From an uncultured Candidatus Actinomarina sp. (GTDB lineage: Bacteria > Actinomycetota > Acidimicrobiia > Actinomarinales > Actinomarinaceae), in assembly GCA_902555055.1 (NCBI GenBank), contig CACDQN010000003.1, forward strand, positions 15,860 to 79,859: DNA of 64,000 nt. Direction: 5' to 3'. A program made the translations under genes and the position numbers. This document shows, piece by piece, positions 45,269 through 59,535 of this stretch (the stretch's first letter is position 1; every line of letters begins with the position of its first letter). The notes below the pieces were generated by a model. That model was not told where the DNA came from. It searched no databases and saw nothing but the letters and a program-made list of their open reading frames with translations.

Positions 45269-45271
45269 ATT

Positions 45272-46213
45272 ATGAAGTATTTAATAACTGGTGGGGCGGG
45301 ATTTATAGGCAGTCATTTGATTGGTAAAATTATAACGAAAGCTGATAAAGTTATTGTTCTAGATAATTTACTCACTGGTTCAAAAAAAAATATTGAAAAG
45401 TTCATTAAGTTAGATAACTTTGAATTTAAACCTCATGACATACAACATCACTATGATATTTCGGAAAAAATGGATTATGTGATTCATCTAGCTAGCTGTG
45501 CGTCTCCTTTAGCGTATACTAAATTTCCTATCAATACACTTAAGTCAGGAAGTATTGGCACTATAAACGCATTAGGAATTGCAAGAAAATTTAACTCTAA
45601 ATTTCTTCTTTCTTCGACATCAGAAATATATGGAGATCCGAAGATTTCCCCACAAAGTGAAGATTACTGGGGAAACGTTAATCCAACTGGTCCTAGAAGT
45701 ATGTACGATGAATCTAAAAGATTTGCTGAGGCGGCAACACAAGCATATGTTAGTGAATATGATTTAAATGCAAACATTATAAGAATATTTAATACATACG
45801 GAGAAAATATGCAATTAAATGATGGTAGAGTGGTAACTAATTTTATTGTTCAAGCTTTAAATAACGACAATATCACGATTTACGGTGACGGACTTCAAAC
45901 GAGATCTTTTTCTTACATTGAAGATACTGTTAATGGACTTTTACTAGCATTAAATTATCCAAAATCTGAAATTTTTAACATAGGTAATGATAATGAAATG
46001 TCCATTAAAGATTTAGCAACTTTAATTTTAGAATTGACTAAATCTGATTCTAAAATAATTTATAAAAAGCTACCAGTTGATGATCCATTGCAAAGAAAAC
46101 CAGATTTAACTAAATCAAAAAAAATATTAGGTTATCAGCCAAAAATCGATATAGTGACAGGATTATCAAAAACTATTCAATGGATAAAGAATAATTCAAA
46201 TAAAATTGTTTAA
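45272..46213 (+). CDS. uxs: UDP-glucuronate decarboxylase (UDP-xylose synthase type SDR)
   Basis: ITGGAGFIGSHL, STSEIYGDP, YDESKR and GDGLQTRSF blocks typical of UXS/ArnA-C enzymes. Directly follows ugd. Confidence 0.8.
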   Translation: MKYLITGGAGFIGSHLIGKIITKADKVIVLDNLLTGSKKNIEKFIKLDNFEFKPHDIQHHYDISEKMDYVIHLASCASPLAYTKFPINTLKSGSIGTINALGIARKFNSKFLLSSTSEIYGDPKISPQSEDYWGNVNPTGPRSMYDESKRFAEAATQAYVSEYDLNANIIRIFNTYGENMQLNDGRVVTNFIVQALNNDNITIYGDGLQTRSFSYIEDTVNGLLLALNYPKSEIFNIGNDNEMSIKDLATLILELTKSDSKIIYKKLPVDDPLQRKPDLTKSKKILGYQPKIDIVTGLSKTIQWIKNNSNKIV

Positions 46214-47233
46214 TCTTTTATTAAGTGAACTTAATGAATGATTTTTTAGATTATGGTTTATTGAATCAAAAAATTTATTTAGTTCATCTTCTTTTACATT
46301 TCTTAATAAATTAATTTTTTTAGTAAGGTCTGCCGTATTTTCAAAAAAATAATAAACTGAATAATTTTTATAGATACTGTTGAAATCTGAATTATGATAG
46401 AAATTCACTATTCCCATTGATAATGTTTCTAAAACGGACTTGTCAAAGAAACCTTCTCCAGCACAATTAAAATTAACATCATATTTTTTTAAAATACTTG
46501 GAAGATCGGCATGTTTTACCTTCCCCAAAAATTTAATATTATTAAAATTTTCATATTTTAATTTTAATTTTTTTAAATATTGCTCATCATCTTGATTAAG
46601 TGTGCCTCCAATAATATCTAAATTATTATCTCCTTCATTTGAATTTAGAAATGCATCAATACCAATTTCTAAATTTTTTGATTTAGAAATTCTAGATAAG
46701 ATTAAAAAATTATTTAATTCGTACTTGTCTTTTTGATTTACGAATTTGTCCTGGTTTATTGAATGTCCAATAACATGAACTTTTTCTGATTTGAAAGGAA
46801 ATGATGTTTGTGATGCAGTCAAAATTTTATCTGAAAGTTTAAAAGCAAAATATAAAATAATTTTTTTAAGTCCAAATTGTGGTCCAGGATGAGTAAACCA
46901 AAGAGTAGATTTTATATTTCTTCTTTTTAGTAAAAATGCAATTATAAAAACCGATATAGGTGACATGTGTGAAAAACAATTTTCATAATTTGTTTTTTTA
47001 ATTAATTCTTTTGCCGTTTTATAAAGAAACCTATATTTATATAATTTATTTACTTTATGAGTTGGGCCATGTATTGTTATTTTCTTATCTAATTCTGGTA
47101 ATTTACCAAGTCTTAGTGTTATAACATCTACTGCTTCATAGTTCTTTGAAATTTCTTCTAGCCACCCAATAGCAAATCCTAAAGATGTATCATCACTATC
47201 GATTGCAAGATTAAGATATAATAATTTACTCAT
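46196..47233 (-). CDS. Glycosyltransferase (GT-B fold, GT4-like)
   Basis: C-terminal half has NCAGEGFFDKSVLETLSMG (EX7E-like, one residue longer). Start set at MSKLLYLNLAID (47233). The track start 47269 overlaps the upstream gene by 44 bp. Confidence 0.5.
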   Translation of the reverse strand: MSKLLYLNLAIDSDDTSLGFAIGWLEEISKNYEAVDVITLRLGKLPELDKKITIHGPTHKVNKLYKYRFLYKTAKELIKKTNYENCFSHMSPISVFIIAFLLKRRNIKSTLWFTHPGPQFGLKKIILYFAFKLSDKILTASQTSFPFKSEKVHVIGHSINQDKFVNQKDKYELNNFLILSRISKSKNLEIGIDAFLNSNEGDNNLDIIGGTLNQDDEQYLKKLKLKYENFNNIKFLGKVKHADLPSILKKYDVNFNCAGEGFFDKSVLETLSMGIVNFYHNSDFNSIYKNYSVYYFFENTADLTKKINLLRNVKEDELNKFFDSINHNLKNHSLSSLNKRLNNFI

Positions 47234-48356
47234 AGAGGGACTCTTGTATTTTCCTCCAGTTTTCATCAAACACCCCAGAACCAGATAAAGACTCAGATAG
47301 TTGAAATGCTTTCATAGCTAGTTCTAAGCGTGTTTGATCATTTTTAAAAAATAGCTCTAAATTTGTAGTAAATTCATTAGTGTTGTTAATTTCATAAAGC
47401 ATAGTTCCTCCTTTTGAATTAAAAGGAGTGGAAATACCATTAATATTTGTAGCCAAACTAGGTAATTTACATAGTCCACTTTCTATTAATACTCTCGGTA
47501 ATCCTTCGAAATTACTCGCCATAACCAAAATAGCAGAATCATTCATTTTTTTTGCAACTTCATCTGGCTTCAATGCATCATAGAAATTTATATTCGGTAT
47601 ATTATTTTTTGATATGTAATCTTGGCATTCTTCAAAGTATTGAACATTGGGTCTACCACCTACAATTTTAAATTGGTATAAACCATCATTATTTTTTTGA
47701 AAATGATCAAATGCTTTTATGAGAAAAAGAACACCTTTTCTTGGAATAATATTTCCAACAAATAGTATGTTGTTCGATTTTGTATTATTGTTGTTGTGAT
47801 AAAAAGTTGTATTGTCAACCCAAGCAGGAAATACTGAAGTAATTTTTTTATATTTGTCTTCAAGTAATTTAGTTTGCTCTTCATGAACCCCTCTAATTAA
47901 ATCACAATTTTTGTATGTAAAATTTGAAATTTTACTAGACAGGTATATCGTAAATTTTTTAAAATATAATTGTCTTTGGTTTAATAATAAATTTAGAAAA
48001 TCTCCGTGGTGCTCTATGACCAACTTAAAATTCAAAATCCTTAATTTCAAAAGTAAAGTAGGAATCAAAGCTGTTATAGGATCTTTTGCTGAAACAATAT
48101 CAATCTTTTCATTTTTAACAAATTTATAAAATGAAAAGATATTAAAAAAGTAAAAATATAAATAATTAATTAAAAAGTTTTTGAATTTTTTAGTATAAAA
48201 AATTTTTACCACTTTGTGGTCTATGTATTGAGCTTTCTTGTTACTTGAATATACAAAGAGATTAAATGATTTAGACAATTCATTAAACTTATTAAAATCT
48301 GATGAGCTTAACGAAATGGAATAGGGTGTTGTACCGTAAAAAAGTAAATTTTTCAT
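47226..48356 (-). CDS. GT4-family glycosyltransferase
   Basis: EX7E block FEGLPRVLIESGLCKLP and Rossmann-like VGNIIPRKG. 376 aa. Confidence 0.7.
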   Translation of the reverse strand: MKNLLFYGTTPYSISLSSSDFNKFNELSKSFNLFVYSSNKKAQYIDHKVVKIFYTKKFKNFLINYLYFYFFNIFSFYKFVKNEKIDIVSAKDPITALIPTLLLKLRILNFKLVIEHHGDFLNLLLNQRQLYFKKFTIYLSSKISNFTYKNCDLIRGVHEEQTKLLEDKYKKITSVFPAWVDNTTFYHNNNNTKSNNILFVGNIIPRKGVLFLIKAFDHFQKNNDGLYQFKIVGGRPNVQYFEECQDYISKNNIPNINFYDALKPDEVAKKMNDSAILVMASNFEGLPRVLIESGLCKLPSLATNINGISTPFNSKGGTMLYEINNTNEFTTNLELFFKNDQTRLELAMKAFQLSESLSGSGVFDENWRKIQESLYE

Positions 48357-49495
48357 TTTTTTAGTATCTCTAGGTATGTTTTTAAGTTTTGTTCTTCATT
48401 AAATAACTTATGTAGATTTTTCATTGCATTTTTCTTCAATAATCTATCTTTTTCCATATTGTTAGTCAATTCCTCAATTATTTTTAATAAATCTTCTTTT
48501 ACTGGTTTAAATGACTTACGTAATTGCCATATCCACCCATTCCTACCATTCATCAATACTTCGTTTGTCCCACCAATCGGAGTACTAATGATTGATAAAT
48601 TGTGACTAATTGCTTCTAATATTACGTGTGGCAATCCTTCATAGCTAGAACCTTGAATATAAATATTTGACTTTTCATAGAATTGACTTAAAGATTCTTT
48701 ATCCAGTTGTCCGGTAAAAACTACTTCTTGTTCTAGAACTAATTTTCTTGTCAACTCTTTTAGAGCCACTTCTTCTGGCCCACTTCCTACAATATAAAAA
48801 ATAAAATTATTATTTAATCTTTTATACATTGCGAAAGTTTCAAGCATTATATCGATATTTTTCCAGGGAGCTAATCTACCTACTGTAATAAATTTTAATT
48901 TCTCAGGACTTACTTGATTGTCTTCTCTTTTTGTTTTATCTACTATTGTCCCGTTGTAAATAACTTTAATATTTTTATCAGAAACCCCCCAATTCTTAAC
49001 TATGTTCTTTAAGTGATTTGAAGGAGTAATGACCAAGTGGGCTTTTGTTGCAGTCCAACCTCTTGAAAATTTTGCTATTTCCAAATGTAAACCGTGTTTA
49101 TTATTTTGAAAATCATCAAAAGATTCATTTATTAATTTACGATTCATTCCACGTTCCCAAGCCCAATCACCAACAATTTTTCTATAAAGTTTTTTTCTAA
49201 TTAGTAAATTAGCTATGTATGATTCCATAGGAAGACCATTTACAAAAATTAAATCTGAATTTACTCCATGCTTTAGTATTTGAAATATTGTTCTAAACCA
49301 TCGAATTACTAAATTTTGTTTTCTTAAAATCCTTACAATCTTAAAATTTTCCTTATCCAATTGGTATTTATCAGTTAAGCAAATTACTGTTACTTCATTT
49401 CCAGATTTTGAAAGAAGGTTTGCTATTTTTGGTACAAAACTAGCAGGTCCTCCGATGTCAGGAGGAAAAATTCCAACAGTAATTAATATTTTCAA
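48353..49495 (-). CDS. GT4-family glycosyltransferase
   Basis: N-terminal PPDIGGPASF, TVGRLAPWKN and the EX7E block YEGLPHVILEAISHNL. ATGA-type overlaps on both sides. Confidence 0.75.
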   Translation of the reverse strand: MKILITVGIFPPDIGGPASFVPKIANLLSKSGNEVTVICLTDKYQLDKENFKIVRILRKQNLVIRWFRTIFQILKHGVNSDLIFVNGLPMESYIANLLIRKKLYRKIVGDWAWERGMNRKLINESFDDFQNNKHGLHLEIAKFSRGWTATKAHLVITPSNHLKNIVKNWGVSDKNIKVIYNGTIVDKTKREDNQVSPEKLKFITVGRLAPWKNIDIMLETFAMYKRLNNNFIFYIVGSGPEEVALKELTRKLVLEQEVVFTGQLDKESLSQFYEKSNIYIQGSSYEGLPHVILEAISHNLSIISTPIGGTNEVLMNGRNGWIWQLRKSFKPVKEDLLKIIEELTNNMEKDRLLKKNAMKNLHKLFNEEQNLKTYLEILKK

Positions 49496-50469
49496 TTATT
49501 TATTTTTTTATACTCAATTATTTCTTTGATCATATTTTCTATCGTCATAGAAGGCTCATAACCTGTAGCTTCTACAATTTTATCAATTGAAGGCGTTCTC
49601 CGCATTGGGTCTTCAAATTTACTTCCATATACTTCTTCATGTGTTCTATATACTATTTTTGAATTTGAATTACTTAATTTTATAATTAATTCTGCAAGCT
49701 CTTTAATCGAGATTTCTTCAGTTTGTCCAATATTAAAAATTTCGCCATAGAGTTTTTTATTTGATAGAAGATAGAAATATTCAATTACATCATTTACCCA
49801 AGTAAAAGATCGAGTCTGAGTACCATTTCCATGAATTATGATATCTCTATCTTGAATTGCAGCTTCGATAAACTTTGGTACAACCATACCAAAATCAGAA
49901 ACTTGGTTGGGTCCAATTATATTAAATAGCCTAACTACAATTGGATTCAAATTATTATCGTTGTATTCAGACAACACTAAAAATTCATCAATTAGTTTCG
50001 ATGCAGCGTATGACCATCTTAATTTTGTTGGGGGACCGATTAAGCTTTTAGTTTCTTCCGTCCACACCTTGTCACTTGAAGTACCATAAACTTCAGAAGT
50101 GGATGTAATCAACATAGGTATATTGTTTGCCTTACATGCTTCAATAATTACATGTGTTCCTTCAATATTCGTAAGCAATGCTTTACTTACATTTTCCATG
50201 ATATATTGAACACCTACTCCTGCAGCTAAGTGGAAGCAGAAATCATAGTCTTTAAACAATTTTTCAAGATTTTCGATATCTTCTATTCTGGATTCGATAA
50301 ATTCAATATTATTTAATCCAATTAAGTTGTTTTTATTCCCAGTTGATAAGTCATCAATTATAAGTATTTTTTCGGTTCCTTCAGATAAAAATTTTTTTGC
50401 TAGGTTTGAACCAATAAAACCTGCACCGCCAGTAATAATAATATTTTTTAAATTATTTTTCATAGTCAT
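49492..50469 (-). CDS. NAD-dependent SDR epimerase/dehydratase (second UXS/ArnA-C-like paralogue)
   Basis: ITGGAGFIGSNL, TSTSEVYG and YAASK (YxxxK). Start is likely MTMKNNLKN (50469) or MKNNLKN (50463). The track start 50520 overlaps the upstream gene by 68 bp. Confidence 0.7.
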   Translation of the reverse strand: MTMKNNLKNIIITGGAGFIGSNLAKKFLSEGTEKILIIDDLSTGNKNNLIGLNNIEFIESRIEDIENLEKLFKDYDFCFHLAAGVGVQYIMENVSKALLTNIEGTHVIIEACKANNIPMLITSTSEVYGTSSDKVWTEETKSLIGPPTKLRWSYAASKLIDEFLVLSEYNDNNLNPIVVRLFNIIGPNQVSDFGMVVPKFIEAAIQDRDIIIHGNGTQTRSFTWVNDVIEYFYLLSNKKLYGEIFNIGQTEEISIKELAELIIKLSNSNSKIVYRTHEEVYGSKFEDPMRRTPSIDKIVEATGYEPSMTIENMIKEIIEYKKINN

Positions 50470-51445
50470 ACTTAAATTTAATTTTCTGAAGGTAAGATTC
50501 ATTACTTTTATACCATTCAATTGTTTTTTCTAGTCCCTCATCAATATCAGTAAATGGTTGCCAGTCAAGTTTTTGCTTTGAGTTATCTAAGTTTGGAAGT
50601 ACAACATCAACATCATTATATGCCCTATCTCTAAAAACTAAATTTGCTTTTTTACCAAGGTAATTTTCAATCTTATTGATTATTTCAATTAATGACCATG
50701 TAGTATTTGAACCAAAATTGAAAGTACCACTTTTGTTATAGTGTCTTAACTTATTTAAACCATCCACAATGTCCATAACATAGGTAAAAGACCTTCTTTG
50801 CTCTCCGTTACCATAAATTATTACTTCTTGATTTGTTGCAATCCAGTGAATAAATCTCAATATAGACATATCAGGCCTGCCGTATGGACCATAAACAGTA
50901 AAAAATCTTCCAATCTTTAATATTTCGTCTTCTTCAGAAAATACATTTCTTACCAAAGTTTCACCGAATGCTTTTGTAGCAGCATAAATTGAAGGAGGTT
51001 CATTTAATTCATCTTGATTTTCAGTTGCTAAATTGTTACCTGTATCACCATAAATAGAAGATGTTGAAGCTAATACAAGATTTTCTATACTTAAATTTTT
51101 TGCGGTCAAAGCTAGATTTACAGTTGCTGTAGTGTTGTCTCTTATGTACTTATCTGGTTCTAAATAGCTTTGCCTTACACCAGCACGAGCACCTAAGTGC
51201 ACAATTGTTTTTGCTCCGTTAAAACTATTTAAATGATTTTCAATTTCATTCTTTTCAGATAAATCTATTTTTAAAAATTTGAAGTTAGAAATATTTTTTA
51301 AATGTTCTAGTCGTAAATCTTTTAATCTTGAATCGTATGCATTATTTAAAGAATCAATTCCAATAATCTCGTAAGTTTCATCAAGGGAATTTATAAAATT
51401 AAAGCCTATAAATCCACATGAACCTGTAACAATAATTTTTTCCAC
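50453..51445 (-). CDS. UDP-glucuronate 4-epimerase-like SDR
   Basis: VTGSCGFIGFN, YAATK and the block RFFTVYGPYGRPDM characteristic of GlcA 4-epimerases (FFTVYGPWGRPDM). GTG start. Confidence 0.7.
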   Translation of the reverse strand: MEKIIVTGSCGFIGFNFINSLDETYEIIGIDSLNNAYDSRLKDLRLEHLKNISNFKFLKIDLSEKNEIENHLNSFNGAKTIVHLGARAGVRQSYLEPDKYIRDNTTATVNLALTAKNLSIENLVLASTSSIYGDTGNNLATENQDELNEPPSIYAATKAFGETLVRNVFSEEDEILKIGRFFTVYGPYGRPDMSILRFIHWIATNQEVIIYGNGEQRRSFTYVMDIVDGLNKLRHYNKSGTFNFGSNTTWSLIEIINKIENYLGKKANLVFRDRAYNDVDVVLPNLDNSKQKLDWQPFTDIDEGLEKTIEWYKSNESYLQKIKFKYDYEK

Positions 51446-51511: not shown

Positions 51512-53083
51512 ATGCTTACATTCCTAGGCCATGCTGCTTTTATGTACGAAACTGAGAATGAAATCTTACTTATGGACCCATGGATGTCAAAATCAGGTGC
51601 TTTTGATTCATCTTGGTATCAGTTTCCTTCAAATCATCTTCTTGGCGATGATGTTCGAGAATTAATTGAAACGACAGACAAAAATGTATACATTTATATA
51701 AGTCATGAACATAAAGATCACTTTGACCTTCCTTTTCTTAAATCCCTTCCATTAAGTAAAATTAATTTTATTACTCCAAAATTTAGAAGAGACCATGTGG
51801 CTTCTGTTTTAAATAAATTAAATCCTAATTCTGTAACTACACCTATTGATTCAGAAATAGTTAATATTGGAAATCTAGAAATAAGGCTGTTTCTTGATGA
51901 TCAAGAAATTGTCAGAGATTCAGCTTTAGGTCTCCATGATTCTGACTCTGATTTTACATTTTTAAACCTAAATGATTGTAAAGTTTATGATCGTGTAGAT
52001 GAACTCTTCGCAATATACAACAAATTTGATATTTTTACATGTCAATTTTCTGGTGCCGTTTTTCATCCCGTTTGTTATGAATATCCTGAAAAAAAATATT
52101 ATGAGATTTCTGAATCTAAAGTTTATGGAAAATTTGGTTCTGTTAAAAATCTTATTCAAAAATTTAAACCAGAACTTTATATACCGGCAGCTGGCCCCCC
52201 AGTCTTTTTAGATCCAAATTTGATTCATATAAATTTTCAAGATGTAAATATATTCTCGTCACCTTTTAAATTTAAAAAATATTTAAATGATGCAATACCT
52301 GAATTAAATGTAGAAGTCCCTGTTCCTGGTAGTAAATTTTATTTTAAGAAGCAACAAGTAGATATTGAACATCCTCTAGAGAATATTGAAGAAATGTACG
52401 ATAAAAAAAATATTCAAGATTATGCAAATAATTACGAATCTATTTTCTTAGAGAGAGAAAAGCAAAAATCGTCTTACGACCCTATCGAAGTCCAAAAAAG
52501 ATTGTTAGTTGAATTAAACTCAAAATTAAATGGTTTTAAAATTGAACAAAAAATGAATATTTTAATGGAGTTTTCCTTAAGTGAAATTGAAGATACTTCT
52601 ATCTACATAGATTTTGAATATAACCAAATAGATATTAAGAATAAAATTAATAAAAGTTCTGACTTAACCTATGAGATTAGCGCATCAGCAGGTGATATTG
52701 GAAGATTATTAGATGGGTATCTTAATTGGGAAGATTTCATGCTTTCATTTAGACACAAATTGAAACGAACCCCTGATATCTATCAAGTAGCTATCAACGG
52801 TTTCTTAACAATGGAAAAAGAAGATGTACCTGAATTCGTTAATAATTTAATGCGATTACAAAACCAAAGAGAACGAATTTCTGTTGAAGTTGGTGGAGTG
52901 TTGTACTCTATTGATAAATTTTGTCCTCACCAGGGTAGTGATTTAACTACTCATGAAATTGAAGACGAGAGATTTCTGATTTGTCCTAAACATAGATGGT
53001 CATTTGATTTAGAAGATGAGGGTAAAGCAGTGGGACATGATGCTTCAATAAATGCAGTAGATCTTGATGGCGATGGTTCTTAA
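51512..53083 (+). CDS. CMAH/NamH-like Rieske [2Fe-2S] + metallo-beta-lactamase-fold monooxygenase
   Basis: MBL-type start MLTFLGHAAF..LLMDPW and HxHxDH motif (YISHEHKDHF). C-terminal Rieske ligands CPH-(17 aa)-CPKH. ATG 51512 is preferred over TTG 51464. Confidence 0.65.
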   Translation: MLTFLGHAAFMYETENEILLMDPWMSKSGAFDSSWYQFPSNHLLGDDVRELIETTDKNVYIYISHEHKDHFDLPFLKSLPLSKINFITPKFRRDHVASVLNKLNPNSVTTPIDSEIVNIGNLEIRLFLDDQEIVRDSALGLHDSDSDFTFLNLNDCKVYDRVDELFAIYNKFDIFTCQFSGAVFHPVCYEYPEKKYYEISESKVYGKFGSVKNLIQKFKPELYIPAAGPPVFLDPNLIHINFQDVNIFSSPFKFKKYLNDAIPELNVEVPVPGSKFYFKKQQVDIEHPLENIEEMYDKKNIQDYANNYESIFLEREKQKSSYDPIEVQKRLLVELNSKLNGFKIEQKMNILMEFSLSEIEDTSIYIDFEYNQIDIKNKINKSSDLTYEISASAGDIGRLLDGYLNWEDFMLSFRHKLKRTPDIYQVAINGFLTMEKEDVPEFVNNLMRLQNQRERISVEVGGVLYSIDKFCPHQGSDLTTHEIEDERFLICPKHRWSFDLEDEGKAVGHDASINAVDLDGDGS

Positions 53084-53088
53084 ATATA

Positions 53089-53817
53089 TTGTCATATAAT
53101 TCTAAATCTCATTTGATAATAGTTCCAACTTATAATGAAATTGATAATATAGATAAATTTATCGAGGAAGTTTTTAAAATTGATGTTTCTCTTCTAGTTG
53201 TTGATGACAATTCTCCTGACGGAACTTCTAGTTATGTAGAGAATATTATGAAAACCCATCAAAAAATATATTTGTTAAAAAGAAATTCAAAACTAGGATT
53301 AGGTTCTGCTTACAGAGATGGTTTTAAATGGGGGTTAAATAAGGGATTCACTCATTTTATTGAAATGGATGCAGATTTTTCTCATAGTTTTGAAGATTTG
53401 TTGAAAATATTGGATAGCTCGCATTATTCCGATGTAGTAATTGGTAGCAGGTATATTTCTGGTGGAGGGAGTACAGGTTGGGATACGAAGCGAAAAATAT
53501 TGTCAATTACAGCTAATAATTTATCAAAATTATTACTCCGTTCAAAAATAAATGATATGACGAGTGGCTTTAGGTGTTATTCCAGAAAAGCTTTAGAAGA
53601 AATAGAATATTTTAAAACTAATTCAGATGGGTATTCCTTTCAAATTGAAATGACAATCAGAAGTATTGCAAAAGGGCTAATTATTAAAGAGGTACCAATA
53701 ATTTTTTATGAAAGAAGACTTGGAAATTCTAAAATGTCCAAATCAATAGTTTTGGAAGCATTACTATTCCTCTTAAAGAATGGATTAAAAAGATGGTTAA
53801 ATATAAAGATAAATTAA
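53089..53817 (+). CDS. GT2 polyprenol-phosphate glycosyltransferase (Dpm1/Ppm1/GtrB-like)
   Basis: IIVPTYNE, VVDDNSPDGT and MDADFSH (DxD) motifs. 242 aa. TTG start. Confidence 0.8.
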   Translation: MSYNSKSHLIIVPTYNEIDNIDKFIEEVFKIDVSLLVVDDNSPDGTSSYVENIMKTHQKIYLLKRNSKLGLGSAYRDGFKWGLNKGFTHFIEMDADFSHSFEDLLKILDSSHYSDVVIGSRYISGGGSTGWDTKRKILSITANNLSKLLLRSKINDMTSGFRCYSRKALEEIEYFKTNSDGYSFQIEMTIRSIAKGLIIKEVPIIFYERRLGNSKMSKSIVLEALLFLLKNGLKRWLNIKIN

Positions 53818-54977
53818 TTAACTTTCAAATTTTTCTTGTCTTCCTAATTCCAATAACTCCACACATATCTATTTCATCCTATATAGAGCTAGATGATATT
53901 CCAGTAATTTTATTTCTAGTATTATTTATGATCAACATATATTTAAAAAATTTAAAACAAATTTTTTACAGGCAGTTAATTCCTATATGTATTTTTACTT
54001 TTTATATTTTTGTTCAAAATATATTTATTAATAATGAACTAATTTTTAGTGACGGAATGAGATATATATTCTACACCGCTTTATATATTTCACTACTAGG
54101 TGACAATGATTTAAATCAATATGATAATCTGTTTAGAAATCTTACCTTATTTTTAAATTTTTTTTCAATTCTATTTTTTTTCCTTCAGTTAAATTTTGGT
54201 ACTGACTCATATAATTATTGGAAAATGGGATTTAATGAAAATCAATGGATATTTACTGATGGAAGGATGAACGGTTTTCAAGCAGGAGGTCCTAATGCTT
54301 TTGGAGGCTTAATAGCAGCACTAAATTTATATTGTATTTCCAACAGTAACCGAGTTTATAAAAGAATTTTTATTGTAACCGGGATATTGGGCTGTTTCTT
54401 CACTTACAGTCGTGCATCCATGATAATTTTAATAATTTTGTTGACTGCGTATTTAATTTTATCAAAGAATATATTTGAAGTTTTTTTAGTGGGATTAACA
54501 ATTATTTTTGTAACAAATTTCGGTTTATTAGATAGGTTTATTTCAGAAGCAGAAACTGAAGGAATTCAGGATAGAGTAGAAATGCAGCAAGCTACTATTT
54601 CTGATATATCTTCTAGAGGCTTAGCTAATAATTTATTTGGTTATGGACATAATAATTATGGAATTGTCAGAAGCGAAATACAGCAAACTACAAATTTTTC
54701 ACCTGAGTTAAGGCCAACTGGACCCCACAATTCTTTTTTGTTTATAATTTTAGATTACGGATTTGTAGGATTGTTATTATTTATTTGTATCTTTATAAAA
54801 CCAGTTAAAGTGTTTTTTAAAGATATTAAAGATAATATTTTAGATAAAAATTTTTTATTTTTAGGATCTTTTGTAGCTATGTCTCTTACAGGTGATTTTA
54901 TTCAGAATCATTCAGTTTCGATTCTCTTCTTTTTTGTATTTTTTAAGTTAAACATAAGTATTCAAAATGAAAGATAA
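53793..54977 (+). CDS. O-antigen ligase/polymerase family (Wzy_C) membrane protein
   Basis: RMNGFQAGGPNAFGGL, FTYSRASMIILI and TGPHNSFLFIILDYGFVG motifs with ~10 TM helices. 25-bp overlap with the GT2 gene. Confidence 0.65.
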   Translation: MVKYKDKLINFQIFLVFLIPITPHISISSYIELDDIPVILFLVLFMINIYLKNLKQIFYRQLIPICIFTFYIFVQNIFINNELIFSDGMRYIFYTALYISLLGDNDLNQYDNLFRNLTLFLNFFSILFFFLQLNFGTDSYNYWKMGFNENQWIFTDGRMNGFQAGGPNAFGGLIAALNLYCISNSNRVYKRIFIVTGILGCFFTYSRASMIILIILLTAYLILSKNIFEVFLVGLTIIFVTNFGLLDRFISEAETEGIQDRVEMQQATISDISSRGLANNLFGYGHNNYGIVRSEIQQTTNFSPELRPTGPHNSFLFIILDYGFVGLLLFICIFIKPVKVFFKDIKDNILDKNFLFLGSFVAMSLTGDFIQNHSVSILFFFVFFKLNISIQNER

Positions 54978-56052
54978 ATTAAAAATATTACACGTAGTTC
55001 CAACCTTAAAAAAAGATGGTGCTGAAGTACAACTCGCATCAATAATCAATGAAATTAAAAATATACACTTTGATATATTTACATTTGATATGTACAGAAA
55101 AGGAGATTCTGTAGAAAAAAGTCTTGAAAAATATTCGATATATACCGACAAATTTTTCGGCTTATTTAGTTTATATAAATTAGTTAAAAGAGAAAAATAC
55201 GACATAGTACATTCTCATTTGCCAAAATCTGATTTCTATGTTGGAGTAATTAAGATTTTTAATAAAGATTTTAAACATGTAATCTCAGTTCATGCAAAAT
55301 ATGGCACAAGAACTGGAGAAAATAAATTTAAATATCTTTTCACAAATTTTTTTTGGAGAAAGATATTAAATCAATCAAGTGGAGTCATTGCAATATCTGA
55401 CAGCATTAACAAATGGTTAACCAAACATATTAATTTAGAAGAAGGTAATGTTTCTACAATTCACTATGGAATAAAGATTAATGATAGAAATACAAAAATT
55501 CATAATCAAAATGTAATTGGCATGGCAGCAAGAATGTTACCTTGGAAGGGATGGGATAAAGTTCTTGAAGTAGGCTCATTTTTAAAAGAAAGTGGTATTA
55601 ATTTCAAAATTAAATTAGCTGGATCTGATGATATAGGCTATTTAAAAGATTTAAACAATATGATAATAAAATATGAACTAGAAGAAAATGTAGAGGTGTT
55701 TCCTCATTTTTCAGATATAAACAAATTTTTTCATGAAATAGATTTATTCTTATTTCTATCTGAATCGGAAGGGTTTGGCTTAGTTGCTTTAGAGGCTGTA
55801 GAAAGTAATGTTGCTGTAATTTGTTCAAACATTAGTCCTCTTAATGAGTTTATCTTAGATATAAATGGTTCTTTAGTTGATAGAAATGACACACAAACCA
55901 TCGCTGAACTCATTGGTAATTATTTCAAAAATGAACAAAAGATTTTAAAAAGTGTTCAAATCGGTCAAAAAACACACGTAGTTAAAAATTTTTCTTTAAG
56001 AAAATCTGCAGAATCTATTGAAAAATTTTATATAAGCACAAATAATAACTAG
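54967..56052 (+). CDS. GT4-family glycosyltransferase
   Basis: EX7E block SEGFGLVALEAVESNV. The N-terminal half aligns by eye with the GT4 at 22803 (KILHVVPTLKKDGAE / [15 protein letters not shown]; HSHLPKSDF / HTHSPRSDF). Confidence 0.75.
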   Translation: MKDKLKILHVVPTLKKDGAEVQLASIINEIKNIHFDIFTFDMYRKGDSVEKSLEKYSIYTDKFFGLFSLYKLVKREKYDIVHSHLPKSDFYVGVIKIFNKDFKHVISVHAKYGTRTGENKFKYLFTNFFWRKILNQSSGVIAISDSINKWLTKHINLEEGNVSTIHYGIKINDRNTKIHNQNVIGMAARMLPWKGWDKVLEVGSFLKESGINFKIKLAGSDDIGYLKDLNNMIIKYELEENVEVFPHFSDINKFFHEIDLFLFLSESEGFGLVALEAVESNVAVICSNISPLNEFILDINGSLVDRNDTQTIAELIGNYFKNEQKILKSVQIGQKTHVVKNFSLRKSAESIEKFYISTNNN

Positions 56053-56072: not shown

Positions 56073-57005
56073 ATGAACGTTTTAGTTGTTGGTGGAGCTG
56101 GCTATGTTGGTGGTGGCATAGTTGACAAACTTAAGCCTAAACACAATGTTACAGTTTATGATTCACTAATTTATGAGGAATCATACAGAAAAGATGTAAA
56201 TTTTGTAAATGGAGATATTCGGGACACCGATAAATTACTTCCTTTGTTAGATAAATCTGATGCTGTTATATGGCTAGCTGCATTAGTTGGTGATGGCGCA
56301 TGTGCTATAAATCCAGAATTAACTTTTAAAATTAATTCAGAATCTGTAAAATTTTTGGTTGAAAATTTTAAAAAAAGAATAGTATTTTTATCAACATGTT
56401 CTGTTTACGGCGCACAAGATGGACTTTTAGACGAGAGTTCATCTGTAAATCCTCTTTCTGAATATGCTTCTTCAAAAGTTCAAGCTGAAGAATATTTGGA
56501 AGGTACTAATTCTATTATTTTTAGATTAGGAACTCTATTTGGAATTAGCGATGAATTTTCAAGAATAAGACTAGATCTAGTTGTAAATATATTAGTTACT
56601 AAAGCATTAACAGAAGGAAAGTTAACAGTTTTTGGAGGGGATCAGTGGAGACCGCTATTACATGTTACGGATGTCGCAAATGCTATTGATCATACAATTG
56701 AAATGGAAACAACAGGTGTCTTCAATTTACATTATCAAAATTATAAGATTATTGATATTGGAAATTTGATTATTGAAAAAATACCTACTGCGACTATTGA
56801 AACTACTCCTATGAAATTTCAAGATGCAAGAAATTATCAAGTCAGTAGTGATAAGTTATTAAAAGAAACTGGTTTTGAATCAACCATAGAGCTCGCTAAA
56901 GGAATTGAAGAAGTTTATAATCTTATTTCAAATAATAGAATTAAGAATGTAAACCATATTCGTTATTCAAATCAAAATTTTCTTGAGAAATATGGCGTAA
57001 CTTGA
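56073..57005 (+). CDS. NAD-dependent SDR epimerase/dehydratase
   Basis: VVGGAGYVGG Rossmann motif, STCSVYG and YASSK (YxxxK). 310 aa. Confidence 0.7.
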   Translation: MNVLVVGGAGYVGGGIVDKLKPKHNVTVYDSLIYEESYRKDVNFVNGDIRDTDKLLPLLDKSDAVIWLAALVGDGACAINPELTFKINSESVKFLVENFKKRIVFLSTCSVYGAQDGLLDESSSVNPLSEYASSKVQAEEYLEGTNSIIFRLGTLFGISDEFSRIRLDLVVNILVTKALTEGKLTVFGGDQWRPLLHVTDVANAIDHTIEMETTGVFNLHYQNYKIIDIGNLIIEKIPTATIETTPMKFQDARNYQVSSDKLLKETGFESTIELAKGIEEVYNLISNNRIKNVNHIRYSNQNFLEKYGVT

Positions 57006-57463
57006 TAAATCAAATTACTATTCCTACTCTGTTTGAAAAAGGACAATCTAAAGATCATAGAGGCTTTGTTGAATACTACAATTCACTAGATTTATCAGAT
57101 TTTAAAAGGTTTTATATAGTAACAAACCCAAGTAGAGGAACTGTTCGTGCATGGCACGGTCATAAAATAGAAGCTAAATTAATTAAAGTTTTGAAAGGTG
57201 AATTTCTTATTGCAGTTGTGAAAGTAGATAATTGGGAAAACCCCTCTAATGAGAATAAAGTTGAAAAATTTAAAATGAACGAAGATTCAGGAACTTTATA
57301 TATACCACCTGGATATGCAAATGGTGCTATTAACTTAGTTACTGATAGCAAAGTTATGTATTTTTCGTCCTTAAAGATAGAAGATTCTAAAAAAGATGAT
57401 TATAGATTTGATGCAAAATTTTGGAATCCTTGGTCTGAATATTCTCCGGAAATTTATGAGTAG
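57002..57463 (+). CDS. Cupin-fold sugar-nucleotide isomerase/epimerase (WxcM/FdtA- or RmlC-like)
   Basis: 153 aa. RGFVEYYN...RGTVRAWHGHK...LYIPPGYANG resembles the FdtA/WxcM C-terminal cupin (RG.H.Hk). TTG start overlaps the previous stop. Confidence 0.6.
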   Translation: MINQITIPTLFEKGQSKDHRGFVEYYNSLDLSDFKRFYIVTNPSRGTVRAWHGHKIEAKLIKVLKGEFLIAVVKVDNWENPSNENKVEKFKMNEDSGTLYIPPGYANGAINLVTDSKVMYFSSLKIEDSKKDDYRFDAKFWNPWSEYSPEIYE

Positions 57464-58379
57464 CGCTAAAGTTTTAGTTTTAGGTGCAAACGGAATGCTT
57501 GGAAAGATGGTTGCTCTTTACTTGGATTCAGCCAAAGACCTTGATGTAGATATTACTTCAAGAAGTAAAAATGAATTTGTTGTAGAAAATTTCGATGGTA
57601 ATTATTATATTTTTGATGCCAATAAACTTGATCAAAATCCTTTAGAAGAGATTATCAAGATTTGTGATTATGATTATATTGTTAATTGTATTGGGATTAT
57701 AAAGCCTAAAATTAATGAAAATGATGTGGACTCAATTACTAACACCATATTAATCAATTCCTATTTCCCACAAAAGATTCATAAATTAGCATTTGAGAAT
57801 GATATAAATTATATTCAAATTGGAACAGATTGCGTTTTTTCAGGTTTGGGTGGAGATTATACAGAAGTTTCTTACAAAGATGCACTAGATCTATATGGAA
57901 AATCAAAAATTGTTGGAGAGATCGAAGGAAGTAACAAAATTGTTATAAGGTCTAGCATAATTGGTCCAGAGCAAGGAATCGGATTCTCATTAATGAATTG
58001 GTTTTTGAATAATCAAGAACTAGTTGTCTCTGGATACAAAAACCACATGTGGAATGGTGTTACAACATTGAATTTTGCGAAAATAATTGAGGGAATTATT
58101 ATGAATAATAAAATTAATGATTTTAAAACTCAACATCTTATTCCTAAAAATGTAATATCAAAAGCAAATTTACTTGAACAGTTCAAGATTCATTTTAAAA
58201 AACAAATTGATATTGACCATTTAGATGCCAGTAGTGTAATTAACCGAACTCTCAAGTCAAATAACAGTAATTTGAATGAAGAAATATGGAAATCAGCAGG
58301 TTATGATCATGTTCCTACTATTGAAGAAAATATTGAAGAACTAGCAAATTCTGAACTTACTCATAAGATAATGATATAG
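57456..58379 (+). CDS. RmlD-like sugar-nucleotide 4-reductase (SDR)
   Basis: VLVLGANGMLG Rossmann motif and YGKSK catalytic motif. Start at ATG 57456 forms an ATGAGTAG start/stop overlap with the cupin gene. The track start 57396 overlaps it by 68 bp. Confidence 0.65.
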   Translation: MSSAKVLVLGANGMLGKMVALYLDSAKDLDVDITSRSKNEFVVENFDGNYYIFDANKLDQNPLEEIIKICDYDYIVNCIGIIKPKINENDVDSITNTILINSYFPQKIHKLAFENDINYIQIGTDCVFSGLGGDYTEVSYKDALDLYGKSKIVGEIEGSNKIVIRSSIIGPEQGIGFSLMNWFLNNQELVVSGYKNHMWNGVTTLNFAKIIEGIIMNNKINDFKTQHLIPKNVISKANLLEQFKIHFKKQIDIDHLDASSVINRTLKSNNSNLNEEIWKSAGYDHVPTIEENIEELANSELTHKIMI

Positions 58380-58380: not shown

Positions 58381-59535
58381 ATGAAAGATTTAGCAATAAT
58401 ATTAGGGATAAGACCAGATGTAATAAGGGCGAGTAAAATTTTAAAATTATTAAAAAACCAAAAAGAGATTGATTTTGATTTTTTGTGGTCTGGCCAACAT
58501 TATTCTGAAAATATGAAAGATACTTTTTTTAAACAACTAAATGTACCAATACCTGACTTCGAATTTACTTTAGATACTCAAAACGATTCAACTATTGTTT
58601 CTTCAACTATTACAAATTTATATAATCATTTTGGTAATCATAAATATAAAGCTGCTGTTTTCTTAGGAGATACAAATACAGTTATGGGCTCAATTGCAGC
58701 TGCACAACACAATATACCAATAGTTCATATTGAAGGTTGTATGAGATCTTACGATTGGAGAATGCCAGAAGAAAAATATAGAACAGTCATTGATCATTTA
58801 TCTGATAGAATCTATGCGTATTTAGATAGTTATAAAAAACAAGGTTTAAACGAAGGAATTAGTGAAAAAATCATAAAAGTTACTGGTAATCCAATCGTTG
58901 ATATTATTAATGAAAATTTTGAAAAATTTGAATCTGGATTTACTTATTTGGAAAAAGATTTACAAGATATAGTGAAAAGTAAGTATGTTCTAGTGACGAG
59001 CCATAGAAGAGAAAATATATTAAATATTGACAGTTTTACAAATATAGTAAATTTATTGAACTCAATAAATGATAAAAATGTCATATTTCCAATGGGGTAT
59101 AAAACTCAAGAAATTTTAAAAAACTCTAAATTGAAATTAAATAGCAATATTAAAGTTTTAGATCCAATTGGTTATTTAGAATTTATGTATTTATTAAAAA
59201 ATTCCGCTTTTGTAGCCACCGATTCTGGTACAGTTGTTGAAGAGGCTTGTATCCTAGGGATTCCATCCATACAAATGAGATACTCAACAGAGCGACCCGA
59301 AGTATATGATGTCAAAGCATCTGTAAAATTTGATCCAACTGAAGATAATCCACATATCTCTAAAATTTTAGGTGATGTCGAAGCTATGAACAAAAATTGG
59401 GATAATCCATTTGGTAGGGGGGATGCTTCAGAAACTATTGTTAATGATTTAATTGAACTTTCTAAAAGTAATAATTTTAAAAAACATAAACCATCTGATT
59501 ATGCTTTTGATGTAAGTAATTCCTTTAAAGAATGA
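58381..59535 (+). CDS. wecB: UDP-N-acetylglucosamine 2-epimerase
   Basis: GIRPDVIRASKI, GDTNTVMGSIAAAQHNIPIVHIEG and TDSGTVVEEACILGIPS blocks. I cannot tell the hydrolysing (NeuC) type from the non-hydrolysing type by eye. Confidence 0.8.
   Translation: MKDLAIILGIRPDVIRASKILKLLKNQKEIDFDFLWSGQHYSENMKDTFFKQLNVPIPDFEFTLDTQNDSTIVSSTITNLYNHFGNHKYKAAVFLGDTNTVMGSIAAAQHNIPIVHIEGCMRSYDWRMPEEKYRTVIDHLSDRIYAYLDSYKKQGLNEGISEKIIKVTGNPIVDIINENFEKFESGFTYLEKDLQDIVKSKYVLVTSHRRENILNIDSFTNIVNLLNSINDKNVIFPMGYKTQEILKNSKLKLNSNIKVLDPIGYLEFMYLLKNSAFVATDSGTVVEEACILGIPSIQMRYSTERPEVYDVKASVKFDPTEDNPHISKILGDVEAMNKNWDNPFGRGDASETIVNDLIELSKSNNFKKHKPSDYAFDVSNSFKE

What the first reader, a model, noticed from the sequence alone, without database searches (positions are those of the whole stretch)
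51512..53083. CMAH/NamH-like Rieske + MBL-fold monooxygenase heading a glycan operon: predicted N-acetyl to N-glycolyl sugar hydroxylase with a C-terminal Rieske domain
Seen: a 523-aa ORF whose N-terminal two thirds carry an MBL-type HxHxDH motif (YISHEHKDHF). Its C-terminus carries a complete Rieske ligand set (FCPHQGSDL...17 aa...LICPKHRW). Several blocks follow the order I remember from animal CMP-Neu5Ac hydroxylase (DPW.., IYISH.H.DH, a late R.PDIY block). In CMAH the Rieske domain is N-terminal, so the domain order here looks permuted.

Established: CMAH and mycobacterial NamH (UDP-MurNAc hydroxylase) are the known Rieske enzymes that convert N-acetyl to N-glycolyl on nucleotide sugars.

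Inference: this is the first gene of a nine-gene plus-strand operon (51512-60704) that also encodes a UDP-GlcNAc 2-epimerase. A genome-streamlined marine actinobacterium may therefore make an N-glycolylated envelope glycan or peptidoglycan. No ferredoxin or reductase partner is visible in the window.
Basis: partly seen in the sequence, partly recalled or inferred. Interest (0 to 1): 0.75.

Follow-up and report, generated by a model that had tools for sequence, protein, structure and literature searches.

The report
NamH-type sugar hydroxylase in Actinomarina
This gene encodes a divergent, uncharacterised relative of the two enzymes known to turn N-acetyl sugars into N-glycolyl sugars (bacterial NamH and animal CMAH), and it heads a conserved cell-wall polysaccharide operon in a tiny marine actinobacterium, which suggests but does not prove an N-glycolylated wall sugar.

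Summary
A 523-aa ORF (51512-53083, +) has an N-terminal MBL-fold domain with HxHxDH and a C-terminal Rieske [2Fe-2S] domain with an intact CxH-17-CxxH ligand set. Both pass Pfam thresholds and are invariant in about 100 relatives.

It is homologous to Mycobacteriales NamH (profile E=1e-50, full length, same domain order, but only 23-25% identity). It is also homologous to vertebrate CMAH (profile E=4e-17 over the MBL and middle domains), whose Rieske domain is N-terminal.

The "permuted" order is therefore real relative to CMAH but is simply the published NamH order, not a novelty.

The protein lies outside the tight NamH clade. It fails Pfam's Rv3818 SCP2-like model and keeps the CMAH-like R-x-PD-x-Y motif that NamH has lost. 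Nearly all bacterial relatives do the same, so characterised NamH is the derived outlier.

The gene opens a tightly packed nine-gene operon inside a teichuronic-acid-like wall-glycopolymer cluster (WecA-like, WecB, NDP-sugar dehydrogenase, GT4s, Wzy_C, LCP ligase). The cluster is syntenic across Ca. Actinomarina. Several distant relatives also sit in polysaccharide clusters.

Most likely it is an O2-dependent hydroxylase of a UDP-N-acetyl-amino sugar. The substrate is untested. Interest is moderate.

The parts
51512..53083 (+). 523-aa MBL-fold / SCP2-like / Rieske protein of the NamH/CMAH superfamily; first gene of the operon
51512..52366 (+). N-terminal MBL-fold domain (about residues 1-285), the putative non-heme iron oxygenase site
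   Evidence: Pfam Lactamase_B_3. AF2 model with pLDDT 85. Best structural and profile match is to the diiron MBL-fold hydroxylases FrsH and CmlA.
51704..51721 (+). HxHxDH metal-binding motif (H65-E-H67-K-D69-H70)
   Evidence: Invariant in the family, in NamH and in CMAH.
52379..52861 (+). Middle alpha/beta domain (about residues 290-450). It is homologous to the SCP2-like domain of NamH and to the C-terminal part of CMAH.
   Evidence: hhalign covers it against both NamH and CMAH. The Pfam SCP2_Rv3818 model itself does not hit.
52766..52783 (+). R-T-P-D-I-Y motif (R419-Y424). It is shared with CMAH and with nearly all bacterial relatives, and is lost in Mycobacteriales NamH.
52865..53056 (+). 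C-terminal Rieske [2Fe-2S] domain (about residues 452-515)
   Evidence: Pfam PF00355, E=7e-8. PDB profile hits to Rieske proteins.
52922..52993 (+). Rieske ligands C471-x-H473 ... (17 aa) ... C491-x-x-H494
   Evidence: Invariant.
53089..53817 (+). GT2 glycosyltransferase, 242 aa. Its best (sub-threshold) matches are polyprenyl-phosphate sugar synthases: AglJ, PpgS and Dol-P-hexose transferases.
53793..54977 (+). Wzy_C (O-antigen ligase/polymerase-like) membrane protein
54967..56052 (+). GT4 glycosyltransferase
56073..57005 (+). SDR NAD-dependent epimerase/dehydratase
57002..57463 (+). Cupin (RmlC/FdtA-like sugar epimerase or isomerase)
57456..58379 (+). RmlD-like sugar reductase
58381..59535 (+). 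Non-hydrolysing UDP-GlcNAc 2-epimerase (wecB equivalog)
   Evidence: NCBIfam TIGR00236, 235.5 bits against a cut-off of 210.15.
59532..60704 (+). GT4-like glycosyltransferase; last gene of the operon
60701..61324 (-). Polyprenyl-phosphate glycosyl-1-phosphate transferase (Bac_transf), convergent with the operon end
47226..51445 (-). Divergent arm of the cluster: two GT4 glycosyltransferases and two SDR dehydratase/epimerase genes
41226..47269 (.). Upstream part of the same glycan cluster: sugar-1-P nucleotidyltransferase, WecA/MraY-family transferase, TuaC-like GT4, NDP-sugar dehydrogenase (TuaD-like), an SDR and a GT1
40074..41186 (-). LytR-CpsA-Psr (LCP) family protein flanking the cluster; in Gram-positives this family attaches wall polymers to peptidoglycan

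Best explanation
The protein is a three-domain, oxygen-dependent monooxygenase of the NamH/CMAH superfamily.

**Proposed mechanism**
- The C-terminal Rieske [2Fe-2S] cluster (C471, H473, C491, H494) takes electrons from an unidentified donor encoded elsewhere in the genome.
- It passes them to a non-heme iron site in the N-terminal MBL-fold domain. The ligand candidates conserved in all three families are H65, H67, D69, H70, D136 and D155. The site is possibly dinuclear, as in CmlA and FrsH.
- O2 is activated there to hydroxylate the methyl of an N-acetyl group, giving an N-glycolyl group.

**Proposed substrate**
- The substrate I consider most likely is a UDP-activated N-acetyl-amino sugar made by the surrounding cluster: UDP-GlcNAc, UDP-ManNAc(A) or a 6-deoxy-L-HexNAc.
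- The product would then be built into a peptidoglycan-anchored, teichuronic-acid-like wall polymer of Ca. Actinomarina.

**Shown and inferred**
- Shown: homology, domain architecture, conserved ligands, operon structure and synteny.
- Inferred: oxygenase chemistry, N-acetyl to N-glycolyl regiochemistry, substrate identity and the fate of the product.
For: **Homology**
- Full-length, colinear homology to Mycobacteriales NamH: BLASTP E=6e-37 and hhalign E=1e-50 over 490 columns.
- Homology to vertebrate CMAH across the MBL and middle domains: E=8e-11 and hhalign E=3.6e-17 over 412 columns.
- These are the only two characterised relatives, and both hydroxylate the N-acetyl group of a nucleotide sugar (PMC6194230; PMC4819959).

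**Cofactor sites**
- The Rieske ligands and HxHxDH are invariant in the family, which argues for a retained redox function.
- The only significant MBL-domain match in the PDB, by profile and by fold, is to diiron MBL-fold monooxygenases: FrsH 8a90 at E=3e-9 by profile and 9.5e-9 by Foldseek, then CmlA.

**Gene context**
- It is the first gene of a nine-gene operon with junctions of -25 to +20 bp.
- The cluster has a wecB equivalog, an NDP-sugar dehydrogenase, a WecA-like transferase, GT4s, Wzy_C, Bac_transf and an adjacent LCP protein.
- The whole cluster is syntenic in five Ca. Actinomarina genomes and in a 61%-identity Actinomycetota MAG. The hydroxylase (61-77% identity) is among its better-conserved genes.
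- Four of the seven distant relatives whose Pfam-annotated neighbourhoods or ORF neighbourhood (M. xanthus) were inspected sit in polysaccharide clusters. One is a Gram-negative Wza/Wzc capsule-type cluster that again carries wecB and an NDP-sugar dehydrogenase.
Against: - No member of this branch has been characterised.
- Identity to NamH is only 23-25% and to CMAH 19-22%, so substrate and even regiochemistry could differ.
- The Pfam SCP2_Rv3818 model, which true NamH hits at about 160 bits, does not hit this protein.
- Several relatives lie outside any glycan cluster: P0101, P0081, Micromonospora L031 and M. xanthus L046.
- namH in Mycobacteriales also lies in a cell-wall gene region, so co-location with a wall-polymer cluster does not exclude UDP-MurNAc as substrate.
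- No electron donor is encoded nearby.
- In the literature I could search, N-glycolyl groups on bacterial sugars other than muramic acid were described in 2017 as not yet reported (PMC5378307).
Confidence: 0.4

Rival explanations
1. It does the same job as NamH. It hydroxylates UDP-MurNAc to UDP-MurNGlyc, so Ca. Actinomarina has N-glycolylated peptidoglycan, and the gene merely sits beside the wall-polymer cluster.
For: It has the same three-domain order and length as NamH, with hhalign E=1e-50. JGI names the whole family UDP-MurNAc hydroxylase. The host is an actinobacterium, and putative namH homologues are reported in non-Mycobacteriales actinobacteria that have MurNGlyc (PMC6194230). namH in Rhodococcus also lies among cell-wall genes.
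Against: Identity to real NamH is only 23-25%, and the protein falls outside the tight NamH clade. It does not match SCP2_Rv3818. It is translationally packed as the first gene of a glycan operon rather than placed near mur genes. Close family members occur inside capsule/EPS clusters of Gram-negative and Chloroflexi genomes, where MurNGlyc is not known. The JGI name is applied indiscriminately, down to 22-30% identity.
Confidence: 0.2
2. It is an oxygenase of the same superfamily with a different substrate or chemistry. Possibilities include hydroxylation of another N-acyl group, of a sugar C-H, or of a lipid-linked (polyprenyl-phosphate) intermediate bound through the SCP2-like domain. The lipid-linked option would fit the adjacent polyprenyl-phosphate-sugar-synthase-like GT2 and the Wzy_C membrane protein.
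For: The protein is highly divergent from both characterised enzymes. Its nearest structural relatives, CmlA and FrsH, hydroxylate carrier-bound amino acids rather than sugars. The middle domain belongs to an SCP2-like (lipid-binding-type) fold family in NamH. The hydroxylase, GT2 and Wzy_C genes lie 5 bp apart or overlap. Some relatives sit next to acyl-carrier, AMP-ligase and P450 genes or in non-glycan contexts.
Against: Both characterised members, although they share only 16-19% identity with each other, perform the same N-acetyl to N-glycolyl reaction on nucleotide sugars. That suggests the chemistry is ancestral. CMAH carries the same middle domain yet acts on soluble CMP-Neu5Ac.
Confidence: 0.3
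3. It is a metallo-hydrolase of UlaG or phosphodiesterase type that carries a Rieske domain for regulation or stability, and it is not an oxygenase.
For: Pfam assigns only generic MBL hydrolase-type families. Many Foldseek hits are MBL hydrolases and nucleases. NCBI annotates relatives as 'MBL fold metallo-hydrolase'.
Against: All four Rieske ligands are strictly kept across about 105 diverged representatives. Both characterised relatives are hydroxylases. The best PDB hits by profile and by fold are diiron monooxygenases, not hydrolases.
Confidence: 0.05

Closest known systems
NamH (Rv3818 / MSMEG namH), the UDP-MurNAc hydroxylase of Mycobacteriales
   Same: It has the same length (about 516-523 aa) and the same domain order: MBL/UlaG, then a middle domain, then a C-terminal Rieske domain. 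It aligns colinearly over the full length (E=6e-37 pairwise, E=1e-50 profile). The HxHxDH motif and the Rieske ligands are shared.
   Different: Identity is 23-25%, and the protein is outside the 78-97%-identical NamH clade. It gives no hit to Pfam SCP2_Rv3818. It keeps R-x-PD-x-Y where NamH has R-[VI]-G-G-Y-N, and has H185 where NamH has Y. The context is a glycan operon, whereas the Rhodococcus gene has acyltransferase, HAD and amidase neighbours.
CMAH, the CMP-N-acetylneuraminic acid hydroxylase of deuterostomes
   Same: The MBL domain and the middle domain are homologous through to the W-[ED]-D...R-x-PDIY block. The HxHxDH motif and the N-x-x-D-C block are shared. A Rieske domain is present in both.
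   Different: In CMAH the Rieske domain is N-terminal. Identity is 19-22%. CMAH is eukaryotic, depends on cytochrome b5 and acts on a CMP-nonulosonate. The cluster here has a wecB-type rather than a NeuC-type epimerase, and no nonulosonate synthase was seen.
CmlA / FrsH, MBL-fold non-heme diiron beta-hydroxylases of non-ribosomal peptide pathways
   Same: They are the closest solved structures by Foldseek and by sequence profile. The G-H-A, D-P-[WF], HxHxDH and downstream Asp blocks align.
   Different: They have no Rieske domain and a different N-terminal domain. Their substrates are carrier-protein-bound amino acids. Identity is only 12-14%, and TM-scores are about 0.35 on the full-length model.
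Classical Rieske non-heme iron oxygenases (alpha subunits such as KshA, NdmA and carnitine monooxygenase)
   Same: The Rieske domain gives weak matches to their Rieske domains.
   Different: Their catalytic domain, an SRPBCC/Ring_hydroxyl_A fold with a 2-His-1-carboxylate iron site, is absent. Here the partner domain is MBL-fold.

Membership tests
NamH (UDP-MurNAc hydroxylase, Rv3818-type) | Architecture: N-terminal MBL/UlaG domain followed by a C-terminal Rieske domain, about 516 aa | tested here: met
   Pfam places Lactamase_B_3 at the N-terminus and Rieske at the C-terminus. The NamH architecture is taken from PMC10050696 and from scans of real NamH.
NamH (UDP-MurNAc hydroxylase, Rv3818-type) | Rv3818-like SCP2-like middle domain (Pfam PF25451) | tested here: not met
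   True NamH scores 160-165 bits. The window protein, P0037 and P0076 give no hit at E<=1. The region is nevertheless homologous by profile-profile alignment.
NamH (UDP-MurNAc hydroxylase, Rv3818-type) | Placement within the clade of the characterised enzyme (orthology) | tested here: not met
   Mycobacteriales NamH proteins are 78-97% identical to each other. The window protein is 23-25% identical to them and branches with a separate, broad clade in an NJ tree.
NamH (UDP-MurNAc hydroxylase, Rv3818-type) | Hydroxylation of UDP-MurNAc and presence of MurNGlyc in the peptidoglycan | not testable with these tools
   This needs enzymology or muropeptide analysis.
CMAH (CMP-Neu5Ac hydroxylase) | N-terminal Rieske domain followed by the MBL-fold domain | tested here: not met
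   Here the Rieske domain is C-terminal. It aligns with CMAH residues 47-84, while the MBL and middle domains align with CMAH 139-551.
CMAH (CMP-Neu5Ac hydroxylase) | MBL domain with HxHxDH, plus the C-terminal W-D-D...R-D-PDIY block | tested here: met
   hhalign E=3.6e-17 over 412 columns, including that block. Conserved positions are listed.
CMAH (CMP-Neu5Ac hydroxylase) | Association with a nonulosonic (sialic) acid pathway and a CMP-sugar substrate | tested here: not met
   The epimerase is a wecB equivalog, not NeuC. No NeuB- or NeuA-type genes were found among the cluster proteins scanned.
NamH/CMAH superfamily (MBL-fold plus Rieske N-acyl hydroxylases) | Significant homology to both characterised members, with intact Rieske and MBL metal ligands | tested here: met
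Classical Rieske oxygenase alpha subunit | Rieske domain fused to an SRPBCC-type catalytic domain with mononuclear iron | tested here: not met
   There is no such Pfam or NCBIfam domain. The fold of the non-Rieske part is MBL.

The most novel reading that the evidence does not exclude
The bulk of the bacterial NamH-type family, this protein included, are nucleotide-sugar N-acetyl hydroxylases that act on hexosamines other than muramic acid. If so, N-glycolylated sugars would be a hidden, recurrent modification of surface polysaccharides across many phyla, including the wall polymer of Ca. Actinomarina. Mycobacterial NamH would then be a late, specialised offshoot re-targeted to UDP-MurNAc.
Probability: 0.3. 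Interest if true: 0.7.

Novelty: new variant of a known kind. Interest (0 to 1): 0.45.

Why it matters
**Known enzymology.** Only two enzymes are characterised that make N-glycolyl sugars: CMAH, behind the Neu5Gc xenoantigen, and mycobacterial NamH, whose N-glycolyl-MDP product is a strong NOD2 agonist. Neither has a solved structure.

**What this gene adds.** It belongs to the uncharacterised majority of their bacterial relatives. That family is small: only 158 clusters at 50% identity reach E<=1e-30 among 1.84 billion representatives. Members keep features of both enzymes and sit repeatedly in polysaccharide gene clusters.

**If the inferred activity is real.**
- It would add a new sugar modification to bacterial surface glycans.
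- It would say something concrete about the envelope of an uncultured marine actinobacterium.
- It would provide small, soluble bacterial models for the CMAH mechanism.

**If it is simply a NamH.** It would extend N-glycolyl peptidoglycan to Actinomarinales, which is a smaller but still useful chemotaxonomic point.

Tried and rejected
1. **Genome scan for mycobacterial NamH.** The single genome-contig scan with alignment A1 used strict motif patterns and returned no Mycobacterium. I reached real NamH another way: tblastn against PLSDB found chromosome-like Rhodococcus and Nocardia records, followed by a homologue search from the Rhodococcus protein.
2. **Synteny argument.** That the Rhodococcus gene is the Rv3818 orthologue rests partly on my memory of the M. 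tuberculosis neighbourhood. Independent support is its 78-80% identity to Mycolicibacterium proteins and the strong SCP2_Rv3818 hit.
3. **CMAH sequences.** All comparisons use the returned database proteins.
4. **CMAH distribution paper.** Its supplementary table of prokaryotic CMAH hits is not held.
5. **Organism names.** The listing of cluster members returned no organism names for the NamH-nearest representatives. I therefore could not place Micromonospora/Salinispora-type NamH in the family.
6. **Model coordinates.** They are not exposed to scripts, so I could not measure the Rieske-to-MBL-site distance or the ligand geometry.
7. **Sialic-like (CMP-nonulosonate) substrate.** Considered and rejected as unlikely. 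The epimerase is a wecB rather than a NeuC equivalog, and no NeuB- or NeuA-type genes were seen.
8. **Small 'third clade' framing.** I first described the protein as a small clade bridging NamH and CMAH. The exhaustive search corrected this: the CMAH-like motif is the rule among bacterial members, and Mycobacteriales NamH is the exception.
9. **Literature.** Searches for a characterised non-muramic bacterial N-glycolyl hydroxylase found none. The library is incomplete, so this is absence of evidence only.
10. **Promoter/terminator scan.** Not run. At 29% GC, consensus matches would be uninformative.
Full report
**1. Observation**

The ORF at 51512-53083 (+) is real and encodes 523 aa. A longer TTG-initiated reading from 51464 exists. 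However, homologues all begin at the equivalent of M1 (MLTFLGHA), and the public gene call for the identical protein in NCBI assembly GCA_902594215.1 is 523 aa.

Pfam finds a Rieske [2Fe-2S] domain at residues 456-507 (E=7e-8, 32.6 bits against a cut-off of 20.3). It also finds an MBL-type Lactamase_B_3 domain at the N-terminus (E=1e-6, 29.1 bits against 24).

YISHEHKDHF is at residues 62-71. C471-P-H473 and C491-P-K-H494 are separated by exactly 17 residues. RTPDIY is at residues 419-424.

This is not a chance pattern. H65, H67, D69, H70 and all four Rieske ligands are invariant in an alignment reaching 38% identity. They are kept in about 105 full-length representatives of the family.

**2. 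Organism and setting**

The window has 29% GC. The exact protein, with the same neighbours, occurs in GCA_902594215.1 and in two marine metagenome assemblies. The nearest species-representative genomes are Candidatus Actinomarina single-cell genomes at 76-77% identity, followed by an Actinomycetota MAG at 61%.

The gene is the first of nine plus-strand genes (51512-60704) whose junctions range from a 25-bp overlap to a 20-bp gap. In order, the nine genes are:

| Coordinates | Product |
|---|---|
| 51512-53083 | MBL / SCP2-like / Rieske hydroxylase |
| 53089-53817 | GT2 resembling polyprenyl-phosphate sugar synthases (below cut-offs) |
| 53793-54977 | Wzy_C membrane protein |
| 54967-56052 | GT4 |
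| 56073-57005 | SDR epimerase/dehydratase |
| 57002-57463 | RmlC/FdtA-like cupin |
| 57456-58379 | RmlD-like reductase |
| 58381-59535 | Non-hydrolysing UDP-GlcNAc 2-epimerase; passes the wecB equivalog cut-off |
| 59532-60704 | GT4 |

Around the operon lie further glycan genes:
- two GT4s and two SDRs on the divergent arm;
- a sugar-1-phosphate nucleotidyltransferase, a WecA/MraY-family transferase, a TuaC-like GT4 and a TuaD-like NDP-sugar dehydrogenase upstream;
- a Bac_transf phosphoglycosyl transferase and an AsnB-like amidotransferase downstream;
- a LytR-CpsA-Psr protein directly upstream.

Together these describe a teichuronic-acid-like wall-glycopolymer cluster, probably anchored to peptidoglycan. 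All of it is syntenic in five Actinomarina genomes and in the 61% MAG. The hydroxylase (61-77% identity) is among the better-conserved genes of the cluster, while the glycosyltransferases are at 40-69%. It is therefore a stable lineage trait and not a strain-variable island.

**3. Relationship to NamH**

The literature describes NamH as an N-terminal UlaG/MBL domain plus a C-terminal Rieske domain (PMC10050696). That is the order seen here.

To compare sequences I located a 516-aa MBL-Rieske gene in a chromosome-like Rhodococcus ruber record. It is flanked by acyltransferase, HAD hydrolase and MurNAc-L-Ala amidase genes. Its relatives form a very tight Mycobacteriales clade: 78-97% identity across Rhodococcus, Nocardia and Mycolicibacterium, with several sources naming them UDP-MurNAc hydroxylase. 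All carry Pfam PF25451, "SCP2_Rv3818".

The window protein aligns with this enzyme colinearly from residue 2 to 500, at 25% identity and E=6e-37. At profile level the match is E=1e-50 over 490 columns.

It is therefore a genuine homologue with the same architecture, but it is not in the NamH clade. It also does not match the SCP2_Rv3818 model even at E<=1.

**4. Relationship to CMAH**

I used a remembered mouse CMAH sequence only as bait and retrieved named vertebrate CMAH proteins. Window residues 2-425 align with CMAH 139-551 (E=8e-11), ending exactly at the R-x-PDIY block. The Rieske segment 464-500 aligns separately with CMAH 47-84. Profile-profile comparison gives E=3.6e-17 over 412 columns.

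NamH and CMAH profiles align with each other only across the MBL domain (227 columns, E=9e-8). The window family therefore links the two characterised enzymes better than they link to each other.

**5. Shape of the family**

An exhaustive HMMER scan of 1.84 billion cluster representatives finds only 158 clusters at E<=1e-30 and 458 at E<=1e-10. This is a small family.

Nearly all full-length members are 480-560 aa and have the same features:
- the MBL domain first and the Rieske domain last;
- intact HxHxDH;
- intact C-H-C-H Rieske ligands;
- an R-x-P-D-x-[YF] motif like that of CMAH.

The Mycobacteriales NamH clade, with R-[VI]-G-G-Y-N, is the exception. My earlier picture of a small bridging clade is better restated as follows. 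The window protein belongs to the ancestral-looking, uncharacterised bulk of the bacterial family, and characterised NamH is a derived tip.

JGI applies the name "UDP-MurNAc hydroxylase" to all of them, down to 22-30% identity to real NamH. That name carries little evidential weight.

**6. Structure and mechanism**

An AlphaFold2 model built on the family alignment is confident (pLDDT 85, pTM 0.77). The PDB holds no CMAH or NamH structure.

The best Foldseek hits are FrsH (8a90, E=9.5e-9) and CmlA (E=3e-8 to 1e-7). Both are MBL-fold non-heme diiron beta-hydroxylases, and they rank ahead of generic MBL hydrolases. A sequence-profile search of the PDB independently gives FrsH, "Non-heme diiron monooxygenase", as the only significant MBL-domain hit (E=3.3e-9). 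The G-H-A, D-P-[WF], HxHxDH and downstream Asp blocks are aligned in that hit.

Residues conserved across the window family, NamH and CMAH include H7, D22, H65, H67, D69, H70, D136 and D155. From memory, the carboxylate-rich set 3 His + 3 Asp resembles the CmlA diiron ligand set.

[quoted passage not shown] Here no ferredoxin, reductase or second Rieske protein is encoded in the window.

The mechanism I consider most likely has three steps:
- an external donor reduces the fused Rieske cluster;
- the cluster reduces a mono- or di-iron site in the MBL domain;
- that site activates O2 and hydroxylates an N-acetyl methyl group.

**7. Which substrate?**

Both characterised relatives hydroxylate the N-acetyl group of a nucleotide sugar although they share only 16-19% identity with each other. 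That suggests the chemistry is ancestral. The context here points to a cluster-derived UDP-HexNAc.

The neighbourhoods of distant relatives were as follows:

| Relative | Neighbourhood |
|---|---|
| P0059, Gammaproteobacteria MAG | Wza/Wzc capsule-type cluster, again with a wecB equivalog and an NDP-sugar dehydrogenase |
| P0103, Chloroflexi | Wzy_C, GT4 and sulfotransferase cluster |
| P0074, Acidobacteriota | Poly_export and carbamoyltransferase locus |
| P0076, Cohnella | GT4 genes nearby |
| P0101 | Not a glycan context |
| P0081, Saprospiraceae | Not a glycan context |
| M. xanthus L046 | Not a glycan context |

Micromonospora L031, inspected at the ORF level only, also lies outside a glycan context.

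A sialic-like CMP-nonulosonate substrate is unlikely, because the epimerase is wecB-type and no NeuB- or NeuA-type genes were seen. UDP-MurNAc cannot be excluded. The host is an actinobacterium, namH in Rhodococcus also lies among wall genes, and putative namH homologues are reported in non-Mycobacteriales actinobacteria with MurNGlyc (PMC6194230).

A third possibility is a different substrate class. Lipid-linked intermediates are one candidate, given the SCP2-like domain family and the adjacent polyprenyl-phosphate-synthase-like GT2 and Wzy_C genes.

I assign about 0.4 to the wall-glycan UDP-HexNAc reading, 0.2 to true NamH function, 0.3 to another substrate or chemistry, and 0.05 to a non-oxygenase role.

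**8. Novelty and verdict**

The homology-based interpretation is largely right. The supposed novelty of the domain order is not real, because it is the NamH order.

What is new is modest but genuine. This is a divergent, uncharacterised branch of a very small enzyme superfamily. It is fixed as the lead gene of a conserved wall-polymer operon in a streamlined marine actinobacterium, in a family whose members recur in polysaccharide clusters of several phyla.

N-glycolyl groups on bacterial sugars other than muramic acid were described in 2017 as not yet reported (PMC5378307). I found no characterised enzyme of this branch in the searchable literature.

I rate it a new variant of a known kind, with moderate interest (0.45). 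The decisive test is a straightforward in-vitro LC-MS assay on UDP-HexNAc substrates against UDP-MurNAc.

Noticed in passing
L010 (PACV01000059.1), 8001-9572 and flanks: A contig labelled 'MAG: Flavobacteriaceae bacterium NAT163' carries a 76%-identical copy of the hydroxylase together with Actinomarina-like neighbours at 50-71% identity. It is most likely a mis-binned Actinomarina contig.
   Followed up: partly
window 40074-41186 (-): A LytR-CpsA-Psr (LCP) family protein sits directly upstream of the glycan cluster. This suggests the cluster's product is attached covalently to peptidoglycan, like teichoic or teichuronic acids.
   Followed up: partly
window 37252-37611 (+): A stand-alone 119-aa SCP2 sterol-transfer-family protein (Pfam E=3e-14) lies a few kb upstream of the cluster. 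Any link to the SCP2-like middle domain of the NamH family is unknown.
   Followed up: no
window 18420-19676 and 19710-21041 (+): Two adjacent ORFs of 418 and 443 aa have no Pfam hit at E<=1e-4.
   Followed up: no
window 61390-63228 (+); L092 15509-17347: An AsnB-type glutamine amidotransferase flanks the cluster. It passes the asparagine synthase equivalog cut-off and also resembles XrtA/PEP-CTERM EPS amidotransferases. A 612-aa GATase_7 protein likewise flanks the Chloroflexi hydroxylase cluster, which may point to sugar-carboxylate amidation.
   Followed up: no
Protein database names: JGI/IMG applies the name 'UDP-MurNAc hydroxylase' to the whole MBL-Rieske family, including clusters only 22-30% identical to real NamH. 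NCBI calls the same proteins 'MBL fold metallo-hydrolase' or 'Rieske 2Fe-2S domain-containing protein'. Both names probably mislead for most members.
   Followed up: partly
NZ_LN868939.1 (L087) and NZ_CP145323.1 (L088): Both records are filed in PLSDB as plasmids: a 2.66-Mb Nocardia farcinica 'plasmid 2' and Rhodococcus ruber 'pmega_4', which carries serS. They look like chromosomal fragments. Each carries an NamH-type gene of the Mycobacteriales clade; for the Rhodococcus one, gene neighbourhood also supports orthology to namH.
   Followed up: partly
L046 (Myxococcus xanthus AM003), 12772-14763 (-): About 3 kb from the Myxococcus homologue, on the opposite strand, lies a processive GT2 synthase with a QxxRW motif (NodC/HasA/PgaC-like), next to a membrane-fusion-like protein. 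The homologue is conserved across many Myxococcaceae species.
   Followed up: no
window 54948-55205 (-): An 85-aa antisense ORF overlaps the Wzy_C/GT4 junction. It is low-complexity and AT-rich, and is most likely spurious.
   Followed up: no
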